Source: a virus
Virus record (IMG/VR): IMGVR_UViG_3300001533_002283
Coordinates: 108,182-172,181 of that record
Strand: one strand, 5' to 3'
Length of the DNA stretch: 64,000 nucleotides
Part shown: positions 44,886 through 64,000 of the stretch, piece by piece
How positions within the stretch are numbered: position 1 is the stretch's first letter
How the letters are laid out: each line of letters opens with the position of its first letter
Notes under the pieces: generated by a model
Told to the model about the DNA's origin: nothing
The model's database searches: none
Seen by the model: only the letters and a program-made list of their open reading frames with translations
Made by a program: the position numbers and the translations under genes

Positions 44886-45161
44886 TTATAAAACTTCCGC
44901 CTGCCCCGATTTAACCAACTCCTTTAATCTATTGCCATGAGTTTTAGCTTCTGCGAAACCACCATCCGTAAAAGCCAACCAAATGGTGTTACCATTCTTG
45001 TTTACCACTTCTACCATTTCTTTCTCCACGTCGGTCCATCGGTGGGCATTCTTCACCCTCACAAGCTTAATCACTCCAATATCTCGCCTCTTCCAAAATT
45101 TATAACATAGAAAGAGTCCAATCAGAGTGTTTAACACTAGGGCGATTTCGGCGGCGTTCAT
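44886..45161 (-). CDS. Small membrane-anchored protein (MNAAEIAL...)
   Basis: N-terminal TM helix; ATG overlaps previous stop. Confidence 0.55.
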   Translation of the reverse strand: MNAAEIALVLNTLIGLFLCYKFWKRRDIGVIKLVRVKNAHRWTDVEKEMVEVVNKNGNTIWLAFTDGGFAEAKTHGNRLKELVKSGQAEVL

Positions 45162-45256
45162 TTGAGCAGGAGGGCGAGGATTTGAACGGCGATCACCACG
45201 ACGAGAAACGCGGCAATCGCTCGCCATTGGTCGCGGATTTCGTGGAGGAGGCGCAT
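45158..45256 (-). CDS. 32-aa membrane peptide (MRLLHEIRDQW...)
   Basis: Fills the gap exactly, ATGA-coupled to next gene, single TM helix. Confidence 0.45.
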   Translation of the reverse strand: MRLLHEIRDQWRAIAAFLVVVIAVQILALLLK

Positions 45257-45258
45257 GG

Positions 45259-45762
45259 TTAGGCGGGCCAGTTGGCGTTTGGTAAATCGGCGAGGGCGGG
45301 CGGCGAGGCGAGGAGGGCGGCTTCTTTCGCGAAGCACGCGGCGATGTGGGCGAATATCGCCGCGACGATTACGAGGATGTCGGCGGCGGTAAGGGGGACG
45401 AACACACCGTCGAGGGTTTTCCAACCCTGCACGAGGCCGGGGTTAGCTTGGGCTTGGCCCTGCATCGCGAGCCACATCACGCGGTTTTCGCGCGTCGTGT
45501 CGAAGCGGTGGCGACCGGAGGAGACGGTTACCGCCACACCGCCGGTCTCGACGCCGTAGCGGAAGGCGGCGATGTCGGCAGGTGTGGCGAGTGGAACAGG
45601 CGGGTTGGCGATGTCGTGCTCGACGTTCTGCGGGCTCGGCGTAGTGGCGGAGCGGATACCGATGGTGCGGCCGTCGGCGGTGGCGATGATGTAGCTGCCG
45701 TCCTCGTGGCCGGTGACGGTGCCGAGGCTGCAAGTGTAGGACTCGAAGGGTGTTTCGCTCAT
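45259..45762 (-). CDS. DUF4376-like tail fibre assembly protein
   Basis: RY..ETGG, FDT.R, WKT.DG.FV.LTA, HI.ACF..E motifs. Confidence 0.75.
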   Translation of the reverse strand: MSETPFESYTCSLGTVTGHEDGSYIIATADGRTIGIRSATTPSPQNVEHDIANPPVPLATPADIAAFRYGVETGGVAVTVSSGRHRFDTTRENRVMWLAMQGQAQANPGLVQGWKTLDGVFVPLTAADILVIVAAIFAHIAACFAKEAALLASPPALADLPNANWPA

Positions 45763-45767
45763 GGTAA

Positions 45768-47738
45768 TTAGACGCTGTGGCCGGTGATGGTTGTGCGGAT
45801 GGGGTCGGCGGTGGAGGAGCCGACCCAGACGTTTGCGGTGGCGGTTTTGCGAGTGACGAGCGCGGGCGTGTTGATGCCGGCGGCGAGGGCTCCGCTGGCC
45901 TTGTATTGAGCCCCGCCCGATGCGCTGCCGACCGTCGTGGTGGGCGTGCCGGTCTCCGGCCTCTGCTCGATGCTGTCGAGGACGTCGCGGGCGGCGTTGA
46001 GGAACGAACCGCCGAGGAGTTGCTCGTTGCCGGAGGTCGCGGTGTGAACGGTGAGCTCCCAGTCCTTACGGGTCGTCACCGGAGTGATCCCGACGAGGCG
46101 GGCGGGGTTGTCGCCGAGGAAGGTGCCGTCACCGAGCGCGGCGATGGGTAGGACTACGGGCAGGGAAAGGGCACTTTCCACCCGTCCTCTGACGTCCGCG
46201 ATATAGGCCGTGCCCGCCGATACGGTGCGGAACAACATCGACCCCACTGGGGTCGGATTTGTAATGCTGACGGTTATCTGCGTCCACGCATCTTTGACAT
46301 TCCTCGCGCCGGTTATGACCAATCCGTTCGGTGTCGCGATGCCGTTCCCTAGCACTTGCACGTCGGGCTGACCACTGGAAACGTAATACCAAACTGTGAA
46401 AACCGTTTTACGAAGATAGGTTTCCGAGGTAATCCAGCTATACCCATTGTTGGCTGAAGTAGTAAACTTTATAGCCTTTGTGGCTCCGGTCGGGTGGGAG
46501 GGCAAGCTGTCGGGGTTGGCAACGAGATCGTAGATGGACTGGGTAAAGCTAGTTTGTGCGAACATTCGGCACAGAAACCCTACCCCTATAAAAACAGTAG
46601 GGGTCTGACCGTCCGTAAAGTCTTCCGTCCAAACCCCCCCACCTAAAGCCACCCACACCGGAGGCCGCCCCGTGATGCGCCACGCTTCGCTCTCCGCGTC
46701 GGTGAGGTGGGCGTTAATCCAGCATCCGAGCGGGGCGGGACCGGCGGGCCAGTTGAGGCCGGTGACGTGGTTGGTCGCAACGAGGGAGGCGCTCAGCCAG
46801 TCGGGATCGGTGCCCGCGCCATCGGCGGCGGTGCCTGCGATTACTGTGCCGTTTACGCTCACAACCGGGGCCGAGGTGCCCGCCGTGATGCGCACCTCCA
46901 GCCAGATGCGTTGACCCGAAAAGTTGGTGCGAAGCGCGGAGCAGGTGAAGGTGCGAAAGTCGGTCGCGGGGGTCGCGCCGTTCGCGCGGACTACGAGGTC
47001 GTTCGTGATCCACGCAATGCCGAGGCTCCAAGCGGTGGCGGATGCGAGCGCGGTGGACGAGGAGGAGATGCCGGCGATTTCGGCGGTCGAGGAGGCGGTT
47101 GGCACCGTCACCCACCCGACCCAAGAGGCCAGCGTAGCCCCGGCGAGGTTGCCACGCGGGCCGGGGGTCTGGATTTGGCCGCGGTTGGAGGTGGCCCCGT
47201 CGCTCCAGAGGTAGTCGGCGGCATCGCGATACCCGTCGCCCGTTTCTAATTGCCCCACCGTCGCCGCATTTCCCGCCGCCGTGCCGCCGATGCCGGGAAC
47301 GGTGCCTGCTGTCGTGTCCGTCGCAGCAACTGCGCCTTGGTCAACTTGATTTGGGCCGTAGCTGCCGCTGTGGAAAATGCGCCGGATGACGAGCCCCTCC
47401 TGCGAGTATGCAGTCCCGCCGATTGTCGCGGTGCCGTTGCGGACGACGACTTCAAAGCCCTTGCCCTCGACCGGCACGGCAGGGTCGGTGTAGGTCGCGG
47501 TGGCCACGTTGTGGTAGACCGTATCAACCTCGGCTTGCTGGTTCGCGGAGACGACGACGGGGGTGTTGGATTTGGCGTTTAATGCAGTTTGAGTCGCACT
47601 ACTAATCGGTTTGTTAACATCACTAGTATTATCAACATTTTGAAGGCCCAAAGCGGTTTTTCCGACTGTTGGATTAACATTGCTTAATGTTTTCGTCGCC
47701 GCCCCAATTGCATCTGGTTTATCAATATTATATGCCAT
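45768..47738 (-). CDS. Tail fibre / receptor-binding protein (mosaic)
   Basis: Phage-tail-repeat LGLQNVDNTSDVNKPISSATQTALNAK, lectin-like domains, followed by chaperone. Confidence 0.75.
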   Translation of the reverse strand: MAYNIDKPDAIGAATKTLSNVNPTVGKTALGLQNVDNTSDVNKPISSATQTALNAKSNTPVVVSANQQAEVDTVYHNVATATYTDPAVPVEGKGFEVVVRNGTATIGGTAYSQEGLVIRRIFHSGSYGPNQVDQGAVAATDTTAGTVPGIGGTAAGNAATVGQLETGDGYRDAADYLWSDGATSNRGQIQTPGPRGNLAGATLASWVGWVTVPTASSTAEIAGISSSSTALASATAWSLGIAWITNDLVVRANGATPATDFRTFTCSALRTNFSGQRIWLEVRITAGTSAPVVSVNGTVIAGTAADGAGTDPDWLSASLVATNHVTGLNWPAGPAPLGCWINAHLTDAESEAWRITGRPPVWVALGGGVWTEDFTDGQTPTVFIGVGFLCRMFAQTSFTQSIYDLVANPDSLPSHPTGATKAIKFTTSANNGYSWITSETYLRKTVFTVWYYVSSGQPDVQVLGNGIATPNGLVITGARNVKDAWTQITVSITNPTPVGSMLFRTVSAGTAYIADVRGRVESALSLPVVLPIAALGDGTFLGDNPARLVGITPVTTRKDWELTVHTATSGNEQLLGGSFLNAARDVLDSIEQRPETGTPTTTVGSASGGAQYKASGALAAGINTPALVTRKTATANVWVGSSTADPIRTTITGHSV

Positions 47739-49849: not shown

Positions 49850-51733
49850 TTAGATTGCGAACGGTGTAAATGTATCGGGAACATCTTCTTCGATAATTTC
49901 TCGTGAAGCCAAATACATTTTGGTAGCCCAGTTGGCGAGCAACAGCGCGGAGTAACCGTCTTTTCGGATTCTATCCGGATTTTTACTTCTACGGAAATTC
50001 AACGGCAAATCCCAAGATTGCGAACCGAGTGCGCTAGACGACACTTCAATCATCGCACATTGTTGCTTCAACTTATCCATCAAAGTGTCTTGCCATTCAA
50101 TGAATTGATTAACCGACATATCTTTATAATATTCGTGCTGGCTTAACATTCCTATATCTGCGTCGAGAGCCCGCGCGCCCTCTGTTTCATTGGCGGTTAA
50201 CTTACCCGCGAAGAAAAGACGCTTAAAGTCCAAACACCCTTGCATATATTCGTTGGCGGATTTAGTGAAAGTCCCACCGAATGGTTGTTTATGGACGATT
50301 CTGCCCGACTCTTTATTATAAGATTGGCGAATTTCTTTCGGAGTCTCGCTTTGGTCATCGCGTTTAAAATCCGCTTGAATATCAACGATATTGACTTTGT
50401 TGTTTTTGAAAAGTTGAGAGTTGTTGGCGGAGGTGATAAACTCATTATCGCCCTGTGAAGAGTCGATAGAAATATAGATGATGTTAAAGTTTTTTAGTAA
50501 GAAATAAAGGTATAGAATGTGATCTTGGAAGTTACCACCCGCGACCATATAGTTGTGGACAACCATTGGGACTATCTCATCACCCTTTTTAATTAACTTT
50601 ACTACCACCATTGCAAAATAGTCGCTGTATTCGGCGCTGGAAAAGGAAGGGTCAATACCTAAAACGTATTCATCACCGGGAGTTCCGATAACTTCAATGC
50701 AAGGCGACTTACCATCTTCAATAGTGCATTCTTTCATTTTTTTAGCACTAAAGTAGGAATCGGAATCAGCGGTAAAGATAGCCCTATACTCTCGGTTGAA
50801 AACGGATTCGGAGGTTTGGCCGTTTTTGGCTTCCTCAATGGTTTTCATATTAACTAGACCATCGGGGGCGGCTTCGTAACTGAGGCGAGAAACAAAATAT
50901 CTTGCTCCGTCAAACTCAATGGTTTTCTTTTCTTCTGTTTCCGTAAAAGTCCCTAAGATTTTCCCCTTCCAATTGCAATACTCCCTATACATATCTTCGA
51001 ACTGATAACCAGCGGAAGAAAGGTTAATCACCTTAATATCGCTCTCCATTTTCGCCCGCTCACTCTCCAACATTCTACCCTCTTTAATCAAACGATCTTC
51101 CTCTCTTTTTATCCTAAGTTGTTCTTTGATATTGTTATTTGCTGAGAGGAACGGCTGGACTATAGACAGGAGGATTTCTGAGCTTAAGAAATTTCGCTCA
51201 TCCACAATTACGGTTTCCGCACGAATACCACGGAGTTTTTTACCGTCGCCAAGAGGAACGCAAAGAACACTGGCTCCATTTGGCAGCACCCATTTCCACT
51301 CATCGTTTTTGCGATTCATGTCTTTGGGGAAACAATTTTTTAGCAAGCCATTTTCGTCTTCTTTTACAAATGACTCAACCTGTTCTAGAATGCGGCGAGA
51401 AGCACGGAAAGCAAAGGAGATAATTACAATGCGACAACGGGGGTTAAATAAGGCCCAAAACAAACAAAACATTGCCGCCATATAGCTCTTACCATTGCCA
51501 CGACCCATCACCGTGAGAGAATAATGATTTCTCATCCAACCCTTCATGATGATTTCTTGCATGGGGAACATTTCCATTCCGCCAAGGATATTCAAGGTAA
51601 GTCCCGGATTTGCGAAAAGAAATTCCGCGAGGGTGGCCATTGCCTCTTCGTCGGATAACTCGCCCTCCAATTTTCTCATTTCCGCATTAACGTCCTTATG
51701 CGGGCGTCCTTTGGCTAATCCCGCTTCCCACAT
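49850..51733 (-). CDS. Terminase large subunit
   Basis: FPMQ, GRGNGKS Walker A, LRG.RA..IVDE Walker B, LSSA, LGIDP, RKD.YSA. Confidence 0.92.
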   Translation of the reverse strand: MWEAGLAKGRPHKDVNAEMRKLEGELSDEEAMATLAEFLFANPGLTLNILGGMEMFPMQEIIMKGWMRNHYSLTVMGRGNGKSYMAAMFCLFWALFNPRCRIVIISFAFRASRRILEQVESFVKEDENGLLKNCFPKDMNRKNDEWKWVLPNGASVLCVPLGDGKKLRGIRAETVIVDERNFLSSEILLSIVQPFLSANNNIKEQLRIKREEDRLIKEGRMLESERAKMESDIKVINLSSAGYQFEDMYREYCNWKGKILGTFTETEEKKTIEFDGARYFVSRLSYEAAPDGLVNMKTIEEAKNGQTSESVFNREYRAIFTADSDSYFSAKKMKECTIEDGKSPCIEVIGTPGDEYVLGIDPSFSSAEYSDYFAMVVVKLIKKGDEIVPMVVHNYMVAGGNFQDHILYLYFLLKNFNIIYISIDSSQGDNEFITSANNSQLFKNNKVNIVDIQADFKRDDQSETPKEIRQSYNKESGRIVHKQPFGGTFTKSANEYMQGCLDFKRLFFAGKLTANETEGARALDADIGMLSQHEYYKDMSVNQFIEWQDTLMDKLKQQCAMIEVSSSALGSQSWDLPLNFRRSKNPDRIRKDGYSALLLANWATKMYLASREIIEEDVPDTFTPFAI

Positions 51734-56340: not shown

Positions 56341-57373
56341 AATGGCGCAAAACCTCTTTGATGTAGCCCGTCGCTTCTTTATCCTCAACTTTATCATCTT
56401 TAACATATTTCTTATTATATTCTTCTAGAATAGGTTTTAACGCCTTATACTTCTCTGGCTGAGTTTCCTTAAATTCCTGAATGGCATTAAAAGCGTTTGC
56501 GGAACTCTGAGAAATAATCCCTACTTTTCTAAATAGGAAGTAAAGGCCGAGAATGATAGCGATAGTAAAAATGATAGTAAAGTGCAACGGCTGCATGAAT
56601 ATGATTAATATTGCACCCGCGCCAGTAATCGCAGAGAAGGTAAAGGCTTGTTTTTTAAATAAAGGTAGGTAAAGGCCAATGAAAAGAGCGGCAACGCTCA
56701 ACACCCCCAAAACACTCATCGCTAACCTTTTGTTTTTCTCTATCGCCTCGTGCCGCGCTTTGGCAATTCCCTCCGCGTCTAGCAATTTATCTTGAAGCTG
56801 AGACAGTTCGCCTTGGGCCGAAATAATTTTATCATCATATTCTTTCTGAATCTTAATTTTTTCCGCCTCTAAGAGAATTACCTGTTCTTTGCTTAAAGCC
56901 GTCTCAGTAACCAAACCTTCTTTTTCTTTCACTACCTCACCGTGAACTCTTTGAAGTTCGGCCAAACTGGTTTGTTTCTCGTCCAGTTCTTTCACTAACC
57001 GCTCTTGTTCTGCTCTCATGGCCTCCAAGGTTGGACTAACACCTAACGCCGCCATAGCCTCATCAATGCGATTGAATGTTATCAGCGTCACTCGATTTTC
57101 CTCCTCGTATAATGGGCGAGTGAGTTTTGCGCCCCACAAGCTATTCGCCGCCGATTGAATCTGAGCCCCTTGATTATTAATAACTTGCGACAACCCCTGT
57201 TTTATCTCCGCCTCTTTTGCCGCGACAGCCTGCGTTCCCTCAATTTTAATCCGTTCAATCTCGGCCCGCGCAACCTCTACCTTTTGATACCCCGCACGAT
57301 TTGCAATGTGAGAACATCCCGTCAGGAGTAACGCCCCGAGTATAACAATTAATATTTTTTTACCTTTTTTCAT
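56327..57373 (-). CDS. Coiled-coil lipoprotein with C-terminal TM helices
   Basis: LTGC lipobox, long heptad region, three hydrophobic segments. Confidence 0.7.
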   Translation of the reverse strand: MKKGKKILIVILGALLLTGCSHIANRAGYQKVEVARAEIERIKIEGTQAVAAKEAEIKQGLSQVINNQGAQIQSAANSLWGAKLTRPLYEEENRVTLITFNRIDEAMAALGVSPTLEAMRAEQERLVKELDEKQTSLAELQRVHGEVVKEKEGLVTETALSKEQVILLEAEKIKIQKEYDDKIISAQGELSQLQDKLLDAEGIAKARHEAIEKNKRLAMSVLGVLSVAALFIGLYLPLFKKQAFTFSAITGAGAILIIFMQPLHFTIIFTIAIILGLYFLFRKVGIISQSSANAFNAIQEFKETQPEKYKALKPILEEYNKKYVKDDKVEDKEATGYIKEVLRHYEKI

Positions 57374-57803
57374 TGGTTTTATCCTTTTTTTTAAAATAGT
57401 GTTTTTTCCAGAACTCTTTGGCGTTTTTAAAACCCTCTTTGGTTAACTCTGGGGGAGAGAAGGGAATGCCGAACATTTTTAACATGACGTTGGCTCGTTT
57501 TACCGCGTCCATTTCCGCGTCAATGATTTGTTCAAAAATTTCTTCGTTAAATGGTTGCTTGGCTTTCATCTTGAAGAATTCTGGAAATTCGTTATATCTA
57601 GCTTGCTGCCAATGAGATCGTTCATGACACAAGTAATAGCAACCTTCTAAAGTTTCTTTATACTCAGAGGATATTGTAACAAGGTCTTTGACTGGGCAAT
57701 ATAAACCACCCGCCCCATTCAACTTTCTATGAATAATTTTAACGCCTTCCCCCCGAAAGGTTTTTAAAAGAAGAGTGTAATAGCCTTGGGGGGTAATAGG
57801 CAT
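57360..57803 (-). CDS. Zincin-like metallopeptidase
   Basis: HERSH..Q and downstream E.DA. Confidence 0.65.
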   Translation of the reverse strand: MPITPQGYYTLLLKTFRGEGVKIIHRKLNGAGGLYCPVKDLVTISSEYKETLEGCYYLCHERSHWQQARYNEFPEFFKMKAKQPFNEEIFEQIIDAEMDAVKRANVMLKMFGIPFSPPELTKEGFKNAKEFWKKHYFKKKDKTNEKR

Positions 57804-57808
57804 GGCGT

Positions 57809-58600
57809 TTATTGGAACATTGGTTCCGGTTGAGGATTATAGGTGCCTTCAATTTTGTCCAGAACAAAGCCTAGGAATTTACTTCTGACAATATCGGCGC
57901 GGGTAAAGCTAAAACAGTGAATACCATAATCTTTACTCTCGCCATTATTAAATAAATCAAACATAGGCATAAAACCAGATTTTTCTTTTAAGTCGCTTTG
58001 GCCGGGGTCGCCGCAAACAATTAACTTGCTGTATTTCCCCAGTCTTGTCACAATGGTCTTCAACTCCAGAGGGGTAAGGTTTTGGCTTTCATCCACGATA
58101 ACATATTTAGCGTTCCAAGAAGAGCCTCGAACGAAATTAACCACGTTTCCAGCAATTCGATTTTCTTTTTTAAGACGATCAACATCGCCTTTGGGTAAAA
58201 GTTCTTCTAATTTGTCATAAAGTGGTGCTAGATAAGGACTTACCTTAAGTTCCAAATCTCCGGGAAGCGCGCCCAAAGATTTACTTGCACTTTCGATAGC
58301 AGAGCGGAGATAAAGAATATCTGATTGGGCTTTATTATTTAAAGCGAGTAATCCCGCGTAAATTGCCGTGAATGACTTAGATGTTCCCGCGCACCCCGAA
58401 ACGAAAACAATATTGGTTTTTTTATCAAGAATAAGTTCGATCAACTCTTTTTGTTTATCGGTTAAATCTTTTCTATGAAAAATAGTTAATTCCGATTTTA
58501 GTTTATCTCTCTGAGGGATAATTGGACTTTCATCTTTCTTAGCTCCCACTGGTGACTCGTTATCTTTAACAGAACGGTGTTTTTTACTCATAAGTGTCAT
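57809..58600 (-). CDS. phoH: PhoH family ATPase
   Basis: G.AGTSKS, LGALPGD, FVRG, DESQN, TRLG, GD..QSD, DIVRS. Confidence 0.93.
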   Translation of the reverse strand: MTLMSKKHRSVKDNESPVGAKKDESPIIPQRDKLKSELTIFHRKDLTDKQKELIELILDKKTNIVFVSGCAGTSKSFTAIYAGLLALNNKAQSDILYLRSAIESASKSLGALPGDLELKVSPYLAPLYDKLEELLPKGDVDRLKKENRIAGNVVNFVRGSSWNAKYVIVDESQNLTPLELKTIVTRLGKYSKLIVCGDPGQSDLKEKSGFMPMFDLFNNGESKDYGIHCFSFTRADIVRSKFLGFVLDKIEGTYNPQPEPMFQ

Positions 58601-58607
58601 AGAATGA

Positions 58608-58633
58608 TACAGTTTTTCCTCGCTTTTTGGAAA
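58608..58633 (-). promoter_or_regulatory. Putative late promoter TTTC-N17-CTGTA
   Basis: First promoter of the long leftward block. Confidence 0.75.
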
Positions 58634-58702
58634 AGGGGCTGATGGAATAAATTTGTGTTAAAAACTTGACAGGTTGGCGCGAAAAATGAATAACTACCTT
58701 AT

Positions 58703-59404
58703 ATGATTATCAAAACCGATATTCCCAGCAACCTGATTGAACACCCTGAAGACGCGCCCTCTCGTGTCACCCATCCTAAGTTCATTACCATCAATGAGTT
58801 TAGTGAATATGCCTATAGCCGTTTTGTCCAAGCATTTAATCAGATGTTGCAGGAGCCACAAGATATTATACCCGTCGCGATTGATAGCCCCGGCGGCAGT
58901 ATTGTCTCGCTTATGGGTATTCGAGACCTAATCGCTTGCTCTCCTAAACCCGTCCTCACCACGGTTGCTTCCTGCGCGGCCTCGTGTGGGGCTCTTCTTC
59001 TTGCTCTTGGCACTCGCGGTTATCGTTACGCTTCTCCCAACGCCATGATTCTTATACATGAAGCGAGCACTTCTACCGAGGGTAAAACTTCCGAGATTAT
59101 GAACGAGGCTCTTTATGTTGAAAAACTGAATGACAAACTACTGGATATTCTTGCCGCCCACTCTAATCGTTCCAAAGATTTTTACAAAAAACTGATTAAC
59201 AAAAATAATAATTCAGACCTTTTTATTACACCCGAACAGGCACTTGAATGGGGTATCGTAGACCACATTGCGATTCCAAAAATCACGATGAGTGTTAAAT
59301 TAGATTATAAAGTTGAGCCGATTTATCCTAATAAGGTAGTTAAAATGTCTAAGATTAAGACGAAGGGAAAACCCACAAAAGCTGTTAAGGTTGTAAAGCC
59401 TTGA
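58703..59404 (+). CDS. clpP: ClpP-like protease
   Basis: IDSPGGS, AASCG, ILIHE, D.F....ALEWGIVD; TTGACA at ~58666. Confidence 0.88.
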   Translation: MIIKTDIPSNLIEHPEDAPSRVTHPKFITINEFSEYAYSRFVQAFNQMLQEPQDIIPVAIDSPGGSIVSLMGIRDLIACSPKPVLTTVASCAASCGALLLALGTRGYRYASPNAMILIHEASTSTEGKTSEIMNEALYVEKLNDKLLDILAAHSNRSKDFYKKLINKNNNSDLFITPEQALEWGIVDHIAIPKITMSVKLDYKVEPIYPNKVVKMSKIKTKGKPTKAVKVVKP

Positions 59405-59547
59405 TTCTTAACCAGTCGAACCACACTAACCAAGCGGGAGAAATCTCTTCTCGGTTTTTTCGTTTTTTTAAGATTTCCGCTTGACAATCACCCGTGAAAA
59501 CATAATTATTCTTTTTGTGAAAGCTAAAAATGATTCTGATTTACCAC

Positions 59548-59646
59548 CCCTAACGTTAAAGATGAGCCATGCACGCCGATGGCACTGGATGTGCGTAAGC
59601 ACAGACTGTGACAGCGGTGGGCATTGGCTCCGTCGCCTTGTTAGGC
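59548..59646 (-). repeat. attC: Integron attC site 1
   Basis: Minus strand GCCTAAC AAGGCGACGGAGCCAATG...CATGGCTCATCTTTAAC GTTAGGG; imperfect palindrome, 99 bp. Confidence 0.9.
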
Positions 59647-59715
59647 TCCCTTATTTTCCTTATCTGGTTCAAGGTTGCGTGATACTGATAAGCATGATTG
59701 TCACTTTCGGGCTCG

Positions 59716-60111
59716 TTAGATTATTTTGGCTATAATCGCAGTAATAATAACCGATGAAATCCAAATCAAAAACGTGACTAAATTAGTGAACATAAACTTC
59801 GCAGAGGGCCAAATATATCGTCCCCACATTCCCGGAGGATTCATAATCTGATTCCACTTTTCTTGATCGGTAAGAATCAATCTATGATCTATTCTTTGTT
59901 TTCCTTCTTTATCCGTAAACTCAAAGGGTTCGATCAACTTTTCATGCTCAAGAATGGTGAATATCTGATAGGCAACGATTCGGTCAAATCCGAGTGTTTC
60001 GGGGTCGGAATTTTCTTTCGTCAAGTCCTTGTAAGACCAATCAACAGAGCGATGCTTTCGAGCGTAAAGCCAAGATGCGGCTTTTGCGGTTTGTTCTGAG
60101 TATACGTTCAC
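59716..60111 (-). CDS. Cassette protein, unknown function, C-terminal TM helix
   Basis: Single ORF of the 638-bp cassette. Confidence 0.7.
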   Translation of the reverse strand: MNVYSEQTAKAASWLYARKHRSVDWSYKDLTKENSDPETLGFDRIVAYQIFTILEHEKLIEPFEFTDKEGKQRIDHRLILTDQEKWNQIMNPPGMWGRYIWPSAKFMFTNLVTFLIWISSVIITAIIAKII

Positions 60112-60185
60112 TGGAGACTTTAATTTTATGTATAACGATAAATCTAATCAAAAATCCATTGAATCCCAAGGCTCGGATTCTCTCT

Positions 60186-60301
60186 GCCTAACGTCCAAGA
60201 TGAGCCATGACTGTGATTGGCACTGAGCGTGCTGCCTTGTCGCGCAAGCGACTGCACGATCTGTGACAAGCATAGGCATTGGCTCTAGCGCCTTGTTGGG
60301 C
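60186..60301 (-). repeat. attC: Integron attC site 2
   Basis: GCCCAAC AAGGCGCTAGAGCCAATG...CATGGCTCATCTTGGAC GTTAGGC; begins right after the TGA of 60302..60568. Confidence 0.92.
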
Positions 60302-60568
60302 TCATTTGTATTTTATTATAACGCTGCCGGAGTCTTTTCGGGCAGCGATTAAAACCTTGGCGCTTTCGGGAAGTGCTTTCGTATATTTATATCCCAAAGA
60401 TATCCTTCTATACTTTCTGTCTATCCTCTTTTTTCCTAGAAACCAATCTCCCAAATAAAAATCAATTTCGGTCAAATTCCCGAAAACTGATTCAAACTCC
60501 TTATCTTGGCGGCGTGGCCATATAAAATATCCGTATTCTCTGCTTCGCTTGGTAAATTCAACCTTCAT
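60302..60568 (-). CDS. Small basic protein, possibly DNA-binding, R-M associated
   Basis: 88 aa K/R-rich; stop abuts attC2. Confidence 0.65.
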   Translation of the reverse strand: MKVEFTKRSREYGYFIWPRRQDKEFESVFGNLTEIDFYLGDWFLGKKRIDRKYRRISLGYKYTKALPESAKVLIAARKDSGSVIIKYK

Positions 60569-60613
60569 TTATGTTTGGTAAAGCTTAAAACAAGCTTAAA
60601 TCAAGCAAAAAAA

Positions 60614-61450
60614 CTAAATGGCTATCTGCATCTGCTGGGGCTTCGCTGCAATTACTTCTTCTTCCTTCGGCTCATAAGGCAAATCTACGCGAGTGCGAGC
60701 TATCGCGCAGTATTCCTCGCTGACATCAATTCCGATAAAATGACGGCCCAACTGTTTGGCGACTTTGCAGGTGGTGCCGCTTCCGCACATTGGATCTAAA
60801 ACAATATCTCCTTCGTTAGTCCAAGATAATATATGGTCGCGGGCTAGCTGACACGGGAAAGGTGCGGGGTGACCCTTCGCTTCCTGATCTTCGGCATTCT
60901 TTCCTACAACATACTCCCAGATATTTCCTTTTATCTTCTGATCCTTTACAGGATTCGCCATTTTCTCTCTGGTCTGAACCGTCTTAGAATAATTCTTGTA
61001 GGTTGTGCCGTTAAGTTGGAGTCCAGCGTGTAGGCAATCAACCATTATAGGATTGTGCGTCTTCACTACCCCCTTGCTGAATACAAACATATACTCAAAC
61101 TCATTATTATATCGTTTCCGATATATCTGGGGAATCGGATTCTTCTTCCTGAAAATCATTGTGTCATGAAGATTAAATCCGACTTCCTTAAAAAACAAAG
61201 CCTGCTTAAAGCTAGTGCCGGTTTCTGAACCTTCAATCGTCGCGTCACTAATAACCCAAACAACAACCCCGCCCGGTTTGAGGACTCTGAAAAGCTGCTT
61301 AGCTATATCCTCAAATCGAAAAGTATACCCATTATAGTTTCGTAGGTTGTCGTATGGCGGCGAAGTAACTACCAAATCAACCGATGACTCAGGCATCGAG
61401 GCTATCATCTCAACACAATCACCCTGAATAATTCTGTCTGTAAAATCCAT
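60614..61450 (-). CDS. DNA methyltransferase, beta class (SPPY)
   Basis: TSPPY, HPAPFP, DPMCGSGTT. Confidence 0.93.
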   Translation of the reverse strand: MDFTDRIIQGDCVEMIASMPESSVDLVVTSPPYDNLRNYNGYTFRFEDIAKQLFRVLKPGGVVVWVISDATIEGSETGTSFKQALFFKEVGFNLHDTMIFRKKNPIPQIYRKRYNNEFEYMFVFSKGVVKTHNPIMVDCLHAGLQLNGTTYKNYSKTVQTREKMANPVKDQKIKGNIWEYVVGKNAEDQEAKGHPAPFPCQLARDHILSWTNEGDIVLDPMCGSGTTCKVAKQLGRHFIGIDVSEEYCAIARTRVDLPYEPKEEEVIAAKPQQMQIAI

Positions 61451-61457
61451 AACTCTA

Positions 61458-62399
61458 TTATATGTCCATTATGCCATTATTGTCAACTGCTTTGATGGTC
61501 GCTATGCGGCTTTCAATCCGGTTTATCTTAATGAGTTCACGCAAAGCCTCATCATGACTCATTCTCATAATTTTCTCTCTTTCGTCCGCCAAATAAGCTA
61601 AGGCTAATTCTTTCGCTGCTGCAACCGACTCAACGGCAGCTTGCTTCTCATTCTTCCACAAATCTGAAATTCTCTTATCGAAAGAAAGCATAGCGCGATT
61701 AACGGAAGTCCAATATGCAATGGCATCTTTCGACGGATTAATTGCTGTGACCGATTTTAAAATGTCATGCAATAATCCTTCTGAATTCCCGCCTGCTGCT
61801 GCAAAACATACTAAAACGGAGAGGTGAGAATAAGTGAACACACAAACATTTCGGGATGTGGCTTGTTCATAAATCTGACTAGATCTGACCGGCAACTGAT
61901 AGATGGGGCAGACAACAACGGCATATGGTTTCCCGCGCTTCCAGGTATCCATCGCCGCGACCTTAAAATCTTTCTGGTTTTTAGCTGTTCGGCTTAGTCT
62001 AAAGGCCTTTGCGTCAGCAACTAAACTATAATTCTTACCGAATGCCTCAACATCTGCCGAGTCGCCACGCTCAGTTAAAATCAAACTTTTTAATCCAGAG
62101 GATGCGAAAGCATGGGATAAGAGAGCGTCCGTATACTTAGAATATAATTTCTCCTCACTAGAATCATGGTCATATTGCTCTGGAATGTCTCCACAAAGGC
62201 GCAAGTGATCTATAATGGAACCGACTCCGTTCTTGGAAAACTCATCTTTAAGCTCTCGCTCTAGTTTGGTGAAATCATCCACAAAGTTTCCGCTCAGCTT
62301 TTGGATTTCGCCTATCCAGTATTTACGGCGCGCAATCGCTTGATGACCAATGATATTTGACATTCGGAAAAGTGAAGCTAATTTAGGTGTCTCGGTCAA
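61458..62399 (-). CDS. HindIII-family type II restriction endonuclease
   Basis: HDSSEEKLYSK, ADV, DAKAFRLSRTAKNQKDFKV, P...SQIY match HindIII family. Confidence 0.88.
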   Translation of the reverse strand: MTETPKLASLFRMSNIIGHQAIARRKYWIGEIQKLSGNFVDDFTKLERELKDEFSKNGVGSIIDHLRLCGDIPEQYDHDSSEEKLYSKYTDALLSHAFASSGLKSLILTERGDSADVEAFGKNYSLVADAKAFRLSRTAKNQKDFKVAAMDTWKRGKPYAVVVCPIYQLPVRSSQIYEQATSRNVCVFTYSHLSVLVCFAAAGGNSEGLLHDILKSVTAINPSKDAIAYWTSVNRAMLSFDKRISDLWKNEKQAAVESVAAAKELALAYLADEREKIMRMSHDEALRELIKINRIESRIATIKAVDNNGIMDI

Positions 62400-62720
62400 G
62401 TTGATAGAGGCTGCGCGTTAGCGCGGCCCCCTCTTTTTCGTTGGCTGCGGTGATGTGGGCGTAGCCCACGGTAGAATTTGGAGTGCAAAGCACTTCATGA
62501 GCACGGCTTGCCGCGCGCAATGATGTGCGACGCACGGCTCGGGGTTCGTTGGTTTGGTTTTTGCGTGTTAAGCCTCGCCACCAGAAAGACGACTTTGTGA
62601 GGATTTGTGCGGCTTGTCCGCACGAACCGGAACAATGTCGGTAGGAACGTAGCCCCGTAGCCGAAAGTATTTTTGACATTTCGCCCGCGAATCGTAATAA
62701 TACTAATATATGGGCATCGC

Positions 62721-63131
62721 TCAAACCAAGGTAACTCTAAAAACTCCACGAATCCACTTCTCTGGAATCGCGTCGAGTTCATTTGGTCTATTCGGATTCA
62801 TGACCAAGACAGCCTCTTCCTTTTTATCTACGAATCTGACGAAGTGCTTATTCCCTTCGTCACCCCTCCAGTGTATATACAACAGAATGGCTTCTTTATC
62901 TGTAAGAGTAAACCCACCAAAGACGGGTGAAATAGAAAAACCGGCTCGCTTACCAAATTCGGTAAGGAAATCGGAGCTGATACTACCTTCTATTTTCGTC
63001 CCGCCATTAAATAAATCGAGATTCTTTGAGATGAAGTCTCGGTGGCTGAAAGCGCGCCCGTTATCGGAAAAGAACGATTCGATGCGGGCACCGACACACG
63101 CGAACGGATTGTATTGCTGGATAATTTTCAT
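62721..63131 (-). CDS. C39-like cysteine peptidase domain protein
   Basis: Q.....C near N-terminus, HFV, VMNP spacing typical of C39. Confidence 0.55.
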   Translation of the reverse strand: MKIIQQYNPFACVGARIESFFSDNGRAFSHRDFISKNLDLFNGGTKIEGSISSDFLTEFGKRAGFSISPVFGGFTLTDKEAILLYIHWRGDEGNKHFVRFVDKKEEAVLVMNPNRPNELDAIPEKWIRGVFRVTLV

Positions 63132-63264
63132 ATGAAAGAGTATAAATTCAACATTAGTGAGGAACAGTCAAAAAGGGCTTTGGCCGAAAAGTGGAAAGCG
63201 GGCGAATTTCATGCCGAACACGGCCCCGATGGAGGTGATCCTACTCCTTGTTTGGTTTCTTTCT

Positions 63265-63363
63265 GCCCAACGTTAAAGATGAGCCATGTAGATGATTGGC
63301 GCGAAATGTGCGCAAGCACAGATCGTGACAAGCATCGGAATTGGCTCCATCGTTTGGTTAGGC
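63265..63363 (-). repeat. attC: Integron attC site 3
   Basis: GCCTAAC CAAACGATGGAGCCAATT...CATGGCTCATCTTTAAC GTTGGGC; 99 bp. Confidence 0.92.
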
Positions 63364-63414
63364 TCCTTCCTTTTTATTCATATATTCAACGCCGAAAAGA
63401 ACACGGTATCGCGG

Positions 63415-63621
63415 TCAGCCTTTTAGCTGACTCACAAGAGTTTCAAGCGTCTGTTTCCGAACTAAGGTCTCATTTGCTAAAATCCTAATCTTTTCTTTTT
63501 CCGCGTCTGGCAGGTCTAATTTATTAGCGAGTAAATGAAGGATAAGACCTTCGTTTTCCATGCAGGCCGCAACATAACCACCAAGGCCGGCAATCATAAG
63601 TTTAATATTTTCGTTTTTCAT
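63415..63621 (-). CDS. Cassette protein, unknown function
   Basis: 68-aa ORF upstream of attC3. Confidence 0.6.
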   Translation of the reverse strand: MKNENIKLMIAGLGGYVAACMENEGLILHLLANKLDLPDAEKEKIRILANETLVRKQTLETLVSQLKG

Positions 63622-63624
63622 TTT

Positions 63625-64000
63625 TTATTTCTGGGTTATAGCGAATCCAAACAAAATAATTAGAGCAATCATCATCACAGCCATTGTTTCGCCAACAGCG
63701 CGTCCTATTCCAAGTATTATTGCTGCAGTTATTCCTGAAAGGGCAGAAGGCAGTACAACTTTTCTAATCGTTTGCCATTTTGTTGCACCCATGGCAAGAG
63801 ATCCTTCTTTGTAGTGTCGCGGCACAGCATTTATTGCATCTTCTGCAACACTAGTAATAGTTGGAATTGCCATGATGCCAAGGATAATAGAACCAGCAAG
63901 CCATGTTTCACCAGTTGGAACACCATATCCTTTATATATCCAGTCAACTAGGATTATAAGCCCAAAAAAACCATAAACAACAGAGGGGATTCCAGCTAGA
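63625..64000 (-). pseudogene. pstC: Phosphate ABC permease PstC fragment, C-terminally truncated/fused
   Basis: LAGIPSVVYG, SLAMGATKWQT, GRAVGETMAV; then an unrelated short tail and stop. Confidence 0.8.

What the first reader, a model, noticed from the sequence alone, without database searches (positions are those of the whole stretch)
59481..63670. Integron cassette array joined to phage DNA at an attC crossover point
Seen: three related 99-116 bp attC sites with R''/R' boxes and inner GAGCCA/TGGCTC arms, each downstream of minus-strand ORFs. Cassette ends pair perfectly, as expected for once-circular cassettes. Cassette A starts G|TTAGGC (60192) and ends GCCTAAC; cassette B starts G|TTGGGC (63271) and ends GCCCAAC. 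The two internal cassettes begin TTRGGCAGA, but the terminal site reads G|TTAGGGGTGG and runs into AT-rich phage-like DNA with a TTGACA box, next to clpP. Known: IntI recombines between G and TT and can use GTT-like secondary sites. Inference: a host integron integrase has inserted cassettes into a phage genome (a phage as a cassette vehicle), or the phage has been joined to a host array through attC. The insertion appears to cut a short phage ORF (VKAKNDSDLPP...).
Basis: partly seen in the sequence, partly recalled or inferred. Interest (0 to 1): 0.9.

Follow-up and report, generated by a model that had tools for sequence, protein, structure and literature searches.

The report
Integron gene cassettes in a phage
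A 172-kb freshwater phage, probably of Verrucomicrobiota, carries three genuine integron cassettes but no integrase; one cassette is a complete restriction-modification system, and the array meets phage DNA at the integrase cutting point, a phenomenon already reported for other phages.

Summary
Three attC sites (window 59548-59646, 60186-60301, 63265-63363) belong to an attC family found in Verrucomicrobiota integrons. They fold as canonical bottom strands on the + strand. They bound cassette A (638 nt, one 131-aa ORF), cassette B (3079 nt, HindIII-type restriction enzyme, methylase and two small ORFs) and part of cassette C.

The same attC1 and cassette A occur at 99.7% identity in other metagenomes, followed by a different cassette. 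Identity to the window ends within 5 nt of the G|TT crossover.

The window is the last 64 kb of a 172-kb viral contig with no tyrosine recombinase. Three related phages place clpP next to the gene at this contig's start, so the array fills a variable phage slot. An independent assembly crosses the junction without a branch, at phage-like depth.

The last 329 nt of the contig are a low-depth fragment of a gene nearest to archaeal ones, probably a chimeric tail. The upstream end of the array is therefore unresolved.

Best reading (0.55): a host integron integrase inserted the cassettes into the phage genome. The kind is known (Qi et al. 2023; attG insertion, Loot et al.), and this scan has noted phage-borne arrays on other DNA before. 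This is a new member of a known kind.

The parts
58703..59404 (+). Phage clpP (233 aa), the last clearly phage gene before the array
   Evidence: Pfam CLP_protease E=2.7e-29. 66-70% identical ClpP in three related phages with conserved phoH-clpP synteny.
59405..59553 (+). Spacer on the phage side: clpP terminator-like hairpin (59435-59453 plus T run), a sigma-70-like box (59481-59509), then the target half-site ending ...CCCCTAA
   Evidence: Contigs of two other runs that carry attC1 run on into different sequence at 59549. No homologue in related phages or cassette loci. Caveat: 10 nt (ATCAGAATCA on the - strand) are shared with the leader of the cassette that follows the same attC1 in L030.
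59548..59646 (+). attC1 (bottom strand is +), belonging to cassette A. Crossover between 59553 and 59554. Its outer box is a hybrid with phage DNA (CCCTAAC).
   Evidence: Model score 114.8 bits. Fold z -5.2. An identical site with a normal cassette boundary occurs in L030 and L031.
59716..60111 (-). Cassette A ORF, 131 aa, with a C-terminal hydrophobic stretch; function unknown
   Evidence: No Pfam, PADLOC or NCBIfam match. The same cassette at 99.7% nt identity lies in other arrays.
60186..60301 (+). attC2 (116 nt, longer variable loop), belonging to cassette B
   Evidence: Model score 98.6 bits. Fold z -4.4.
60302..60568 (-). Cassette B, 88-aa ORF of unknown function
60614..61450 (-). Cassette B, N6/N4 DNA methyltransferase (278 aa)
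   Evidence: Pfam N6_N4_Mtase E=5e-52. PADLOC MTase models to E=2e-75. A perfect TTGACA-18-TATAAT box lies just upstream at 61486-61457.
61458..62399 (-). Cassette B, HindIII-family type II restriction endonuclease (301-313 aa)
   Evidence: Pfam RE_HindIII E=6e-106. PADLOC REase_II E=7e-102.
62400..62720 (-). Cassette B, 321-nt G+C-rich non-coding stretch, predicted to be strongly structured
   Evidence: RNA fold z -4.2. No Rfam match. No attC by the model or by a box scan.
62721..63131 (-). Cassette B, first ORF, 136 aa, function unknown
   Evidence: No family match. Only weak language-model leads to small cysteine-peptidase clusters.
63265..63363 (+). attC3, belonging to cassette C
   Evidence: Model score 113.3 bits. 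The identical site in L029-L031 is followed by a different cassette.
63415..63671 (-). Cassette C, 3' part only: 68-aa ORF (63415-63621) plus the last 16 codons of an upstream 102-aa ORF
   Evidence: The exact 68-aa protein lies on 7 contigs from several samples, preceded there by a 102-aa ORF and followed by other cassettes.
63672..64000 (-). Foreign tail, not part of the element: residues 124-233 of a fused PstC/PstA phosphate permease. Probably a chimeric contig end.
   Evidence: 93-98% identical to 647-aa permeases; the named ones are from Thermoplasmatota MAGs. Joined mid-gene with only 4 nt of overlap. Depth 2.6 against 11.3, and no overlap with the neighbouring contig.

Best explanation
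The region is a cluster of attC sites lacking an integron integrase (a CALIN). It sits inside the genome of a large phage that carries no integrase and probably infects Verrucomicrobiota. It lies in the variable slot between clpP and the gene at the contig start.

Proposed mechanism: during infection, the host's integron integrase took cassettes excised from the host array, singly or as a C-B-A circle. It recombined the folded bottom strand of attC1 with a GTT-containing secondary site in phage DNA. This left the hybrid junction G|TTAGGGG.

The phage has no integrase of its own, so further exchange depends on a host enzyme. The cargo is a complete HindIII-family restriction-modification pair with its own promoter, plus four small ORFs of unknown function.

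Shown: the site identity, the cassette boundaries, shuffling of the same cassettes between samples, and contiguity with phage DNA. Inferred: the enzyme, the single-step insertion, residence in packaged phage DNA, and any benefit of the cargo.
For: 1. attC identity. The sites have RYYYAAC/GTTRRRY boxes, unpaired spacers and a GAGCCA/TGGCTC inner stem with one conserved bulged T on the 3' arm of the + strand. In the stem, 90% of cells pair, against at most 42% when partners are slid, and 10 pairs show compensatory changes.

2. The family belongs to real integrons. An exact-pattern scan found 17 loci, apart from two likely chance matches, almost all labelled Verrucomicrobiota. Four of five such genomes encode an integrase above the TIGR02249 cut-off, against 0 of 14 control genomes. 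One locus shows intI, then attI (GCACG|TTAGGC), then cassettes.

3. Mobility. The identical attC1 with cassette A (99.7% over 646 nt) is followed by cassette C in L030 and L031. In the window the order is C-B-A. Identity ends at 59549, 5 nt past the crossover. Contigs of two further runs also diverge at 59549.

4. Phage context. The window is the end of a 172,181-nt viral contig. Three related phages have phoH, clpP, about 1.4 kb of variable small ORFs, then the homologue of the ORF at this contig's start. The contig start is 86% identical to another phage, L037. A large terminase subunit lies at 49850-51733.

5. No tyrosine recombinase is present in the 172 kb.

6. The junction is real DNA. 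Separate Logan assemblies of two run records (probably one library) cross it in single contigs of 6790 and 5774 nt with no branch, at depth 11.3 against 9.3 for the neighbouring phage contig.

7. Precedent exists in the literature.

8. GTAC is almost absent from the phage (3 in 168 kb) and absent from the array (0 in 4.1 kb). It is also nearly absent from most loci of this attC family. This fits a shared host lineage.
Against: 1. The upstream end of the array is not assembled. The contig turns into a foreign fragment at 63672, and the other contig end stops inside a phage gene. The array is therefore not shown to be closed by phage DNA on both sides.

2. The junction is seen only in what is probably one library filed twice (near-identical contig depths in X1 and X2).

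3. The target half-site (GGTG at positions 6-9) does not match the CRGM motif reported for efficient genomic sites.

4. The 10-nt match between the phage side and a cassette leader may mean that the last 45 nt are a cassette remnant. The true boundary would then lie elsewhere.

5. The contig already carries one probable chimeric join.
Confidence: 0.55

Rival explanations
1. The contig shows a co-integrate. The whole phage genome was joined to a bacterial chromosomal array, by attC1 x GTT recombination or as a prophage that happens to abut the array. The cassettes are then host DNA flanking the phage.
For: It gives the same junction sequence as the best explanation. The array lies at a contig end and its upstream side is unresolved. 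The same cassettes exist in arrays that are not joined to this phage.
Against: No tyrosine integrase is present in the phage, only a 213-aa resolvase-type gene. The junction-bearing contig has no branch and a phage-like depth, so nearly every phage copy would have to be integrated. It requires cassette C both upstream of B and, by the order seen in L030, downstream of A. The only apparent host gene turned out to be a low-depth fragment nearest to archaeal genes.
Confidence: 0.2
2. The array is in the phage but was not placed by an integron integrase at G|TT. An array fragment was picked up by illegitimate or homologous recombination. The stretch after attC1 is the remnant of a further cassette, and the real phage boundary lies between 59405 and about 59530.
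For: A 10-nt identity with the leader of the cassette that follows the same attC1 elsewhere, and a similar AATCAGA leader in L013. Qi et al. suggest such routes for phage attC clusters.
Against: The first 12 nt after the crossover differ from every cassette leader collected, and no ORF or attC follows. The chance that an unrelated breakpoint falls within the 6-nt crossover window of a 638-nt cassette is about 1% (inference).
Confidence: 0.15
3. The phage-array join at 59553/59554 is an assembly or library chimera.
For: The same contig carries a probable chimeric tail at 63672. The junction was found in no other collection.
Against: The two contexts share only 6 nt, too few for an assembler to join. 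Logan assemblies cross it within one unbranched contig at depth about 11, whereas the chimeric tail has depth 2.6 and is not connected. The join falls at the biological crossover.
Confidence: 0.07

Closest known systems
CALINs (clusters of attC sites lacking an integron integrase) in phage genomes, Qi, Rajabal, Ghaly, Tetu and Gillings 2023 (PMC9892861)
   Same: Two or more attC sites with co-oriented cassettes sit in a phage that has no integron integrase. DNA methyltransferases are among the cargo. Qi et al. likewise note GTTRRRY-like motifs at element boundaries.
   Different: The attC family can be tied to integrase-bearing integrons of one phylum. The identical cassette and attC are seen in non-phage arrays, which fixes the breakpoint to within 5 nt of the crossover. 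The cargo is a complete restriction enzyme plus methylase pair, not an orphan methylase. The phage is an uncultured 172-kb lineage (large terminase at most 26% identical to any GenBank phage).
attG insertion: integrase-catalysed cassette insertion outside att sites, Loot et al. (bioRxiv 10.1101/2022.09.11.507474)
   Same: A cassette-borne attC is joined to a non-att site at a G|TT (GWT) triplet. This leaves a complete attC on one side only.
   Different: The published work was done in E. coli with IntI1. Here the event is natural, the target is phage DNA and the enzyme is unidentified. The right-hand CRGM motif is not present at positions 6-9.
Chromosomal integrons of Verrucomicrobiota (for example the intI-attI-cassette locus L039)
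   Same: The same attC family, the same cassette leader style (G|TTAGGCAGAA...ATG) and ORFs on the strand opposite the folding strand.
   Different: The phage contig has no intI and no recognisable attI.

Membership tests
Integron attC recombination site | Outer inverted core sites RYYYAAC ... GTTRRRY | tested here: met
   GCCTAAC/GTTGGGC and GCCCAAC/GTTAGGC. Site 1 has CCCTAAC as the hybrid box.
Integron attC recombination site | Inner L boxes that form a stem, separated from the R boxes by unpaired spacers; structure conserved with covariation | tested here: met
   32-pair model: 90% of cells paired, 10 pairs with compensatory change, covariation 0.224 against 0.087 in shuffles.
Integron attC recombination site | Extrahelical base or bases on the bottom strand that set polarity, with ORFs on the top strand | tested here: met
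   One bulged T (CAT-T-GGCTC) is invariant in 26 sites, on the 3' arm of the better-folding + strand. All cassette ORFs lie on the - strand. A second extrahelical G was not identified.
Integron attC recombination site | Length about 57-141 nt | tested here: met
   99, 116 and 99 nt.
Integron attC recombination site | The first bases of each cassette are complementary to that cassette's own R'' box (legacy of a circular form) | tested here: met
   Cassettes A and B in the window. Cassette C in L030.
Integron attC recombination site | Recombined by an integron integrase | not testable with these tools
   Indirect only. The same cassettes occur in a different order in other samples. The family co-occurs with integrases above the TIGR02249 cut-off in 4 of 5 genomes.
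Complete integron | intI gene and attI site next to the array | tested here: not met
   No match to TIGR02249 or PF00589 in the 172-kb contig. The upstream end of the array is unassembled, so absence holds only for what is held.
CALIN | At least two attC sites less than 4 kb apart with no integron integrase nearby | tested here: met
   Three sites with spacings of 638 and 3079 nt and no intI.
Type II restriction-modification system (HindIII family) | Adjacent restriction endonuclease and cognate-type methyltransferase genes | tested here: met
   PF09518 E=6e-106 and PF01555 E=5e-52, 8 nt apart on one strand. Specificity and activity were not tested. AAGCTT occurs 21 times in the phage.
Phage-resident element | Phage DNA on both sides of the element in one molecule | tested here: inconclusive
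   The downstream side is shown. The upstream side is lost at 63661-63672. Circular order is inferred from relatives.

The most novel reading that the evidence does not exclude
A bacterial integron integrase joined an entire, integrase-less 170-kb phage genome to a chromosomal cassette array by attC x GTT recombination. This would be a route to lysogeny-like carriage, or to phage inactivation, that needs no phage integrase.
Probability: 0.12. Interest if true: 0.8.

Novelty: new member of a known kind. Interest (0 to 1): 0.45.

Why it matters
The case adds a well-delimited natural example of integron cassettes in a large phage that carries no integrase.

- The same cassette and attC are seen both in ordinary arrays and joined to phage DNA, with the break within 5 nt of the integrase cutting point. 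This is direct sequence evidence that secondary-site insertion, shown in the laboratory, also loads cassettes onto phages in nature.
- A complete restriction-modification system travels this way, which links integron defence cargo to phage genomes.
- The attC family and the shared GTAC avoidance give a host assignment (Verrucomicrobiota) for an uncultured phage lineage.

The phenomenon itself is published, and physical closure of the array in phage DNA is not yet shown.

Tried and rejected
Scans that found nothing:
- Exact-pattern scans for the phage side of the junction and for the contig start, in viral contigs.
- Exact-pattern scans for a sequence next to the contig start and for the junction itself, in metagenome contigs.
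- Searches for closer phage relatives with the 580-aa and 169-aa proteins.
- A near-length protein search for the cut ORF at the contig start.
- Rfam over 59300-64000.

No empty-site variant or second sample of this phage was therefore available.

Host flank rejected: I first took the permease fragment at 63625-63999 for a bacterial host flank. It is nearest to genes of Thermoplasmatota-labelled MAGs, is cut mid-gene and has low depth.

Phage boundary at contig base 203 rejected: I considered the Logan contig stop there as a phage/array boundary. A related phage is homologous across it.

Absence of cover: runs X3 and X4 gave no cover over the phage part 56000-59470. This is absence of cover only and is not used as evidence.

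L004 left open: the second viral contig that matched the pattern (L004) has two weak model hits (34-36 bits). They overlap ORF starts and a repeated coding motif, and about one chance pattern match is expected in that collection.

No further attC: none was found inside cassette B, by the model or by a box scan.
Full report
WHAT IS THERE

The window is bases 108182-172181 of a 172,181-nt IMG/VR viral contig. The finding therefore lies 0.3-4.5 kb from the contig end.

Three related repeats sit at 59548-59646, 60186-60301 and 63265-63363. They are the only copies in the contig.

Each repeat has the same parts:
- an outer RYYYAAC/GTTRRRY pair;
- 9-nt unpaired spacers;
- an inner GAGCCA/TGGCTC stem with one bulged T;
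- a variable loop.

The + strand folds with z of -4.4 to -5.2. The - strand folds with z of -0.6 to -2.7. All ORFs between the sites lie on the - strand. The + strand is therefore the recombinogenic bottom strand and the genes are in the canonical orientation.

Read on the - strand, the cassettes are:
- cassette A, 59554-60191 (638 nt);
- cassette B, 60192-63270 (3079 nt);
- cassette C, which starts beyond 63671.

The first six bases of A and of B are complementary to their own R'' boxes.

IS IT A REAL attC FAMILY?

An exact scan for the conserved core found 19 loci in one-genome-per-species contigs. Two look like chance matches. The other 17 are almost all labelled Verrucomicrobiota: Opitutaceae, Geminisphaera TAV2, and Chthoniobacter, Prosthecobacter and Akkermansia-labelled MAGs.

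On an alignment of 16 sites, a 32-pair attC structure has 90% of cells paired, against at most 42% for slid partners. Ten pairs carry compensatory changes.

A covariance model built from that alignment scores the window's sites at 98-115 bits. It finds no other site in the window, in the contig start or in three related phages.

Four of five genomes that carry the family encode an integrase above the curated TIGR02249 cut-off. None of 14 control genomes does. Locus L039 shows the textbook layout: intI, then attI (GCACG|TTAGGC), then cassettes with these attC sites.

ARE THE CASSETTES MOBILE?

The exact 68-aa protein of cassette C lies on seven contigs from several samples.

In L030 and L031, cassette A with attC1 (99.7% identical over 646 nt) is followed by cassette C and then by a DUF6966 cassette. 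In the window the order is C-B-A.

L030 and the window are identical up to 59549, which is 5 nt beyond the G|TT crossover at 59554/59553. After that they are unrelated. Contigs of two runs from another study carry attC1 and also diverge at 59549.

The break therefore coincides with the integrase cutting point to within a shared TTAGG.

IS THE FLANK PHAGE, AND IS THE ARRAY INSIDE THE PHAGE?

- Synteny. clpP and phoH are syntenic with three related phages (ClpP 66-70% identical). In all three, clpP is followed by about 1.4 kb of differing small ORFs and then by the homologue of the 169-aa ORF at bases 292-801 of this contig. The two contig ends are thus neighbours on the phage map, and the array fills a variable slot.
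- Contig start. It is 86% identical to another phage contig that continues with a 119-aa gene and a 580-aa SASA/fn3 gene.
- Phage genes. A large terminase subunit lies at 49850-51733. No GenBank phage is close; the terminase is at most 26% identical.
- Recombinases. The contig has no tyrosine recombinase and only one small resolvase-type gene.
- Independent assembly. Logan assemblies of two run records cross the junction in single unbranched contigs (56872-63661 and 56951-62724). Their depth is about 11.3-11.5, against 9.3-9.5 for the adjacent phage contig. The two records have almost identical contig depths and are probably one library, so this counts as one sample.

THE CONTIG END

The apparent permease gene at 63672-64000 corresponds to residues 124-233 of a 647-aa fused PstC/PstA protein. 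It is 93-98% identical to proteins whose named members come from Thermoplasmatota MAGs, where the gene sits in a normal pstS-pstCA-pstB-phoU operon.

The fragment is joined mid-gene, with only 4 nt of overlap, to the last 16 codons of cassette C's first ORF. Its depth is 2.6, and its contig does not overlap the 6790-nt contig.

I read it as a chimeric tail. Consequently the upstream end of the array is unknown. This is the main weakness of any claim about where the array resides.

CARGO

Cassette B holds, in order on the - strand:
- a 136-aa ORF;
- a 321-nt structured non-coding stretch (fold z -4.2);
- a HindIII-family endonuclease (E=6e-106);
- an N6/N4 methyltransferase (E=5e-52) preceded by a perfect -35/-10 pair;
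- an 88-aa ORF.

The other ORFs (131, 136, 88 and 68 aa) match no family. Language-model look-ups gave only weak leads.

HOST LINK

GTAC occurs 3 times in the 168-kb phage, against 205-600 expected, and 0 times in the 4.1-kb array, against about 5-15 expected. It is also nearly absent from most loci of this attC family and from the related phages. It is not depleted in the archaeal pst locus. This supports a Verrucomicrobiota host by inference.

CAVEAT ON THE MECHANISM

On the phage side, 10 nt (ATCAGAATCA on the - strand) match the leader of cassette C, which follows the same attC1 in L030. This may be chance. It may instead mean that the last 45 nt are a cassette-leader remnant. The half-site also lacks the CRGM motif reported for efficient genomic sites.

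COMPARISON WITH WHAT IS KNOWN

Qi et al. 2023 reported 17 attC clusters lacking an integrase in temperate and virulent phages. Methyltransferases were among the cargo, and they showed that phage attC sites recombine with attI1.

Loot et al. showed efficient integrase-driven insertion of cassettes at GWT-centred genomic sites, which they named attG.

Earlier notes of this scan also describe phage-borne arrays, including one in a putative Verrucomicrobia phage.

This finding is therefore a new member of a known kind. It is notable for three things: the precisely mapped breakpoint, the complete restriction-modification cassette, and the host link.

VERDICT

- Observation: confirmed.
- Best explanation, confidence 0.55: cassettes inserted by a host integron integrase into the phage genome.
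- Co-integrate with a host array: 0.2.
- Phage-borne, but acquired by another route: 0.15.
- Chimera at the junction: 0.07.

Noticed in passing
window 63672-64000: The last 329 nt of the viral contig are a mid-gene fragment of a fused PstC/PstA permease, 93-98% identical to proteins of Thermoplasmatota-labelled MAGs. Depth is about a quarter of the phage's. It looks like a chimeric contig end that could be mistaken for a host flank or an auxiliary phosphate gene.
   Followed up: yes
whole contig (G000 1-167734) and loci L006-L026, L037: GTAC is almost absent from the phage (3 sites in 168 kb), from its relatives and from most Verrucomicrobiota loci that carry this attC family. Eleven palindromic hexamers (for example ATCGAT, GGCGCC, GTCGAC, CTGCAG) have zero copies in the phage. 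This is strong restriction-site avoidance shared between the phage and its presumed host lineage.
   Followed up: partly
window 62400-62720 (- strand): A 321-nt G+C-rich non-coding stretch inside cassette B folds far better than shuffles (z -4.2). It has no Rfam match. Contigs from other runs break near 62484 and 62724, which suggests a module boundary or an unrecognised element.
   Followed up: partly
L004 1399-1499 and 2970-3091 (IMGVR_UViG_3300028299_000002, 90.6 kb): A second viral contig has two weak matches (34-36 bits) to the same attC model, flanking a 522-aa C5 methyltransferase gene. Both overlap ORF starts and a repeated coding motif, so they may be decayed sites or coincidence.
   Followed up: partly
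G000 contig bases 1-44: The first 44 nt of the contig diverge from the related phage L037 directly after a run of eight glycine codons in the 119-aa gene. This is either a mosaic C-terminus or another doubtful contig end.
   Followed up: partly
window 45000-47700: A 2.7-kb stretch at 54-63% G+C in a 40% G+C phage, covering a 656-aa ORF without family match and a DUF4376 protein. It is probably a tail-fibre-type module.
   Followed up: partly
run X3, loose ends at window 60194 and 63274: In another study's run, both cassette A and cassette B are preceded by the same non-attC sequence (about GTTTAGTCGGAATNGGTTCCAT on the + strand). This may be the attI of the array that natively holds these cassettes.
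   Followed up: no
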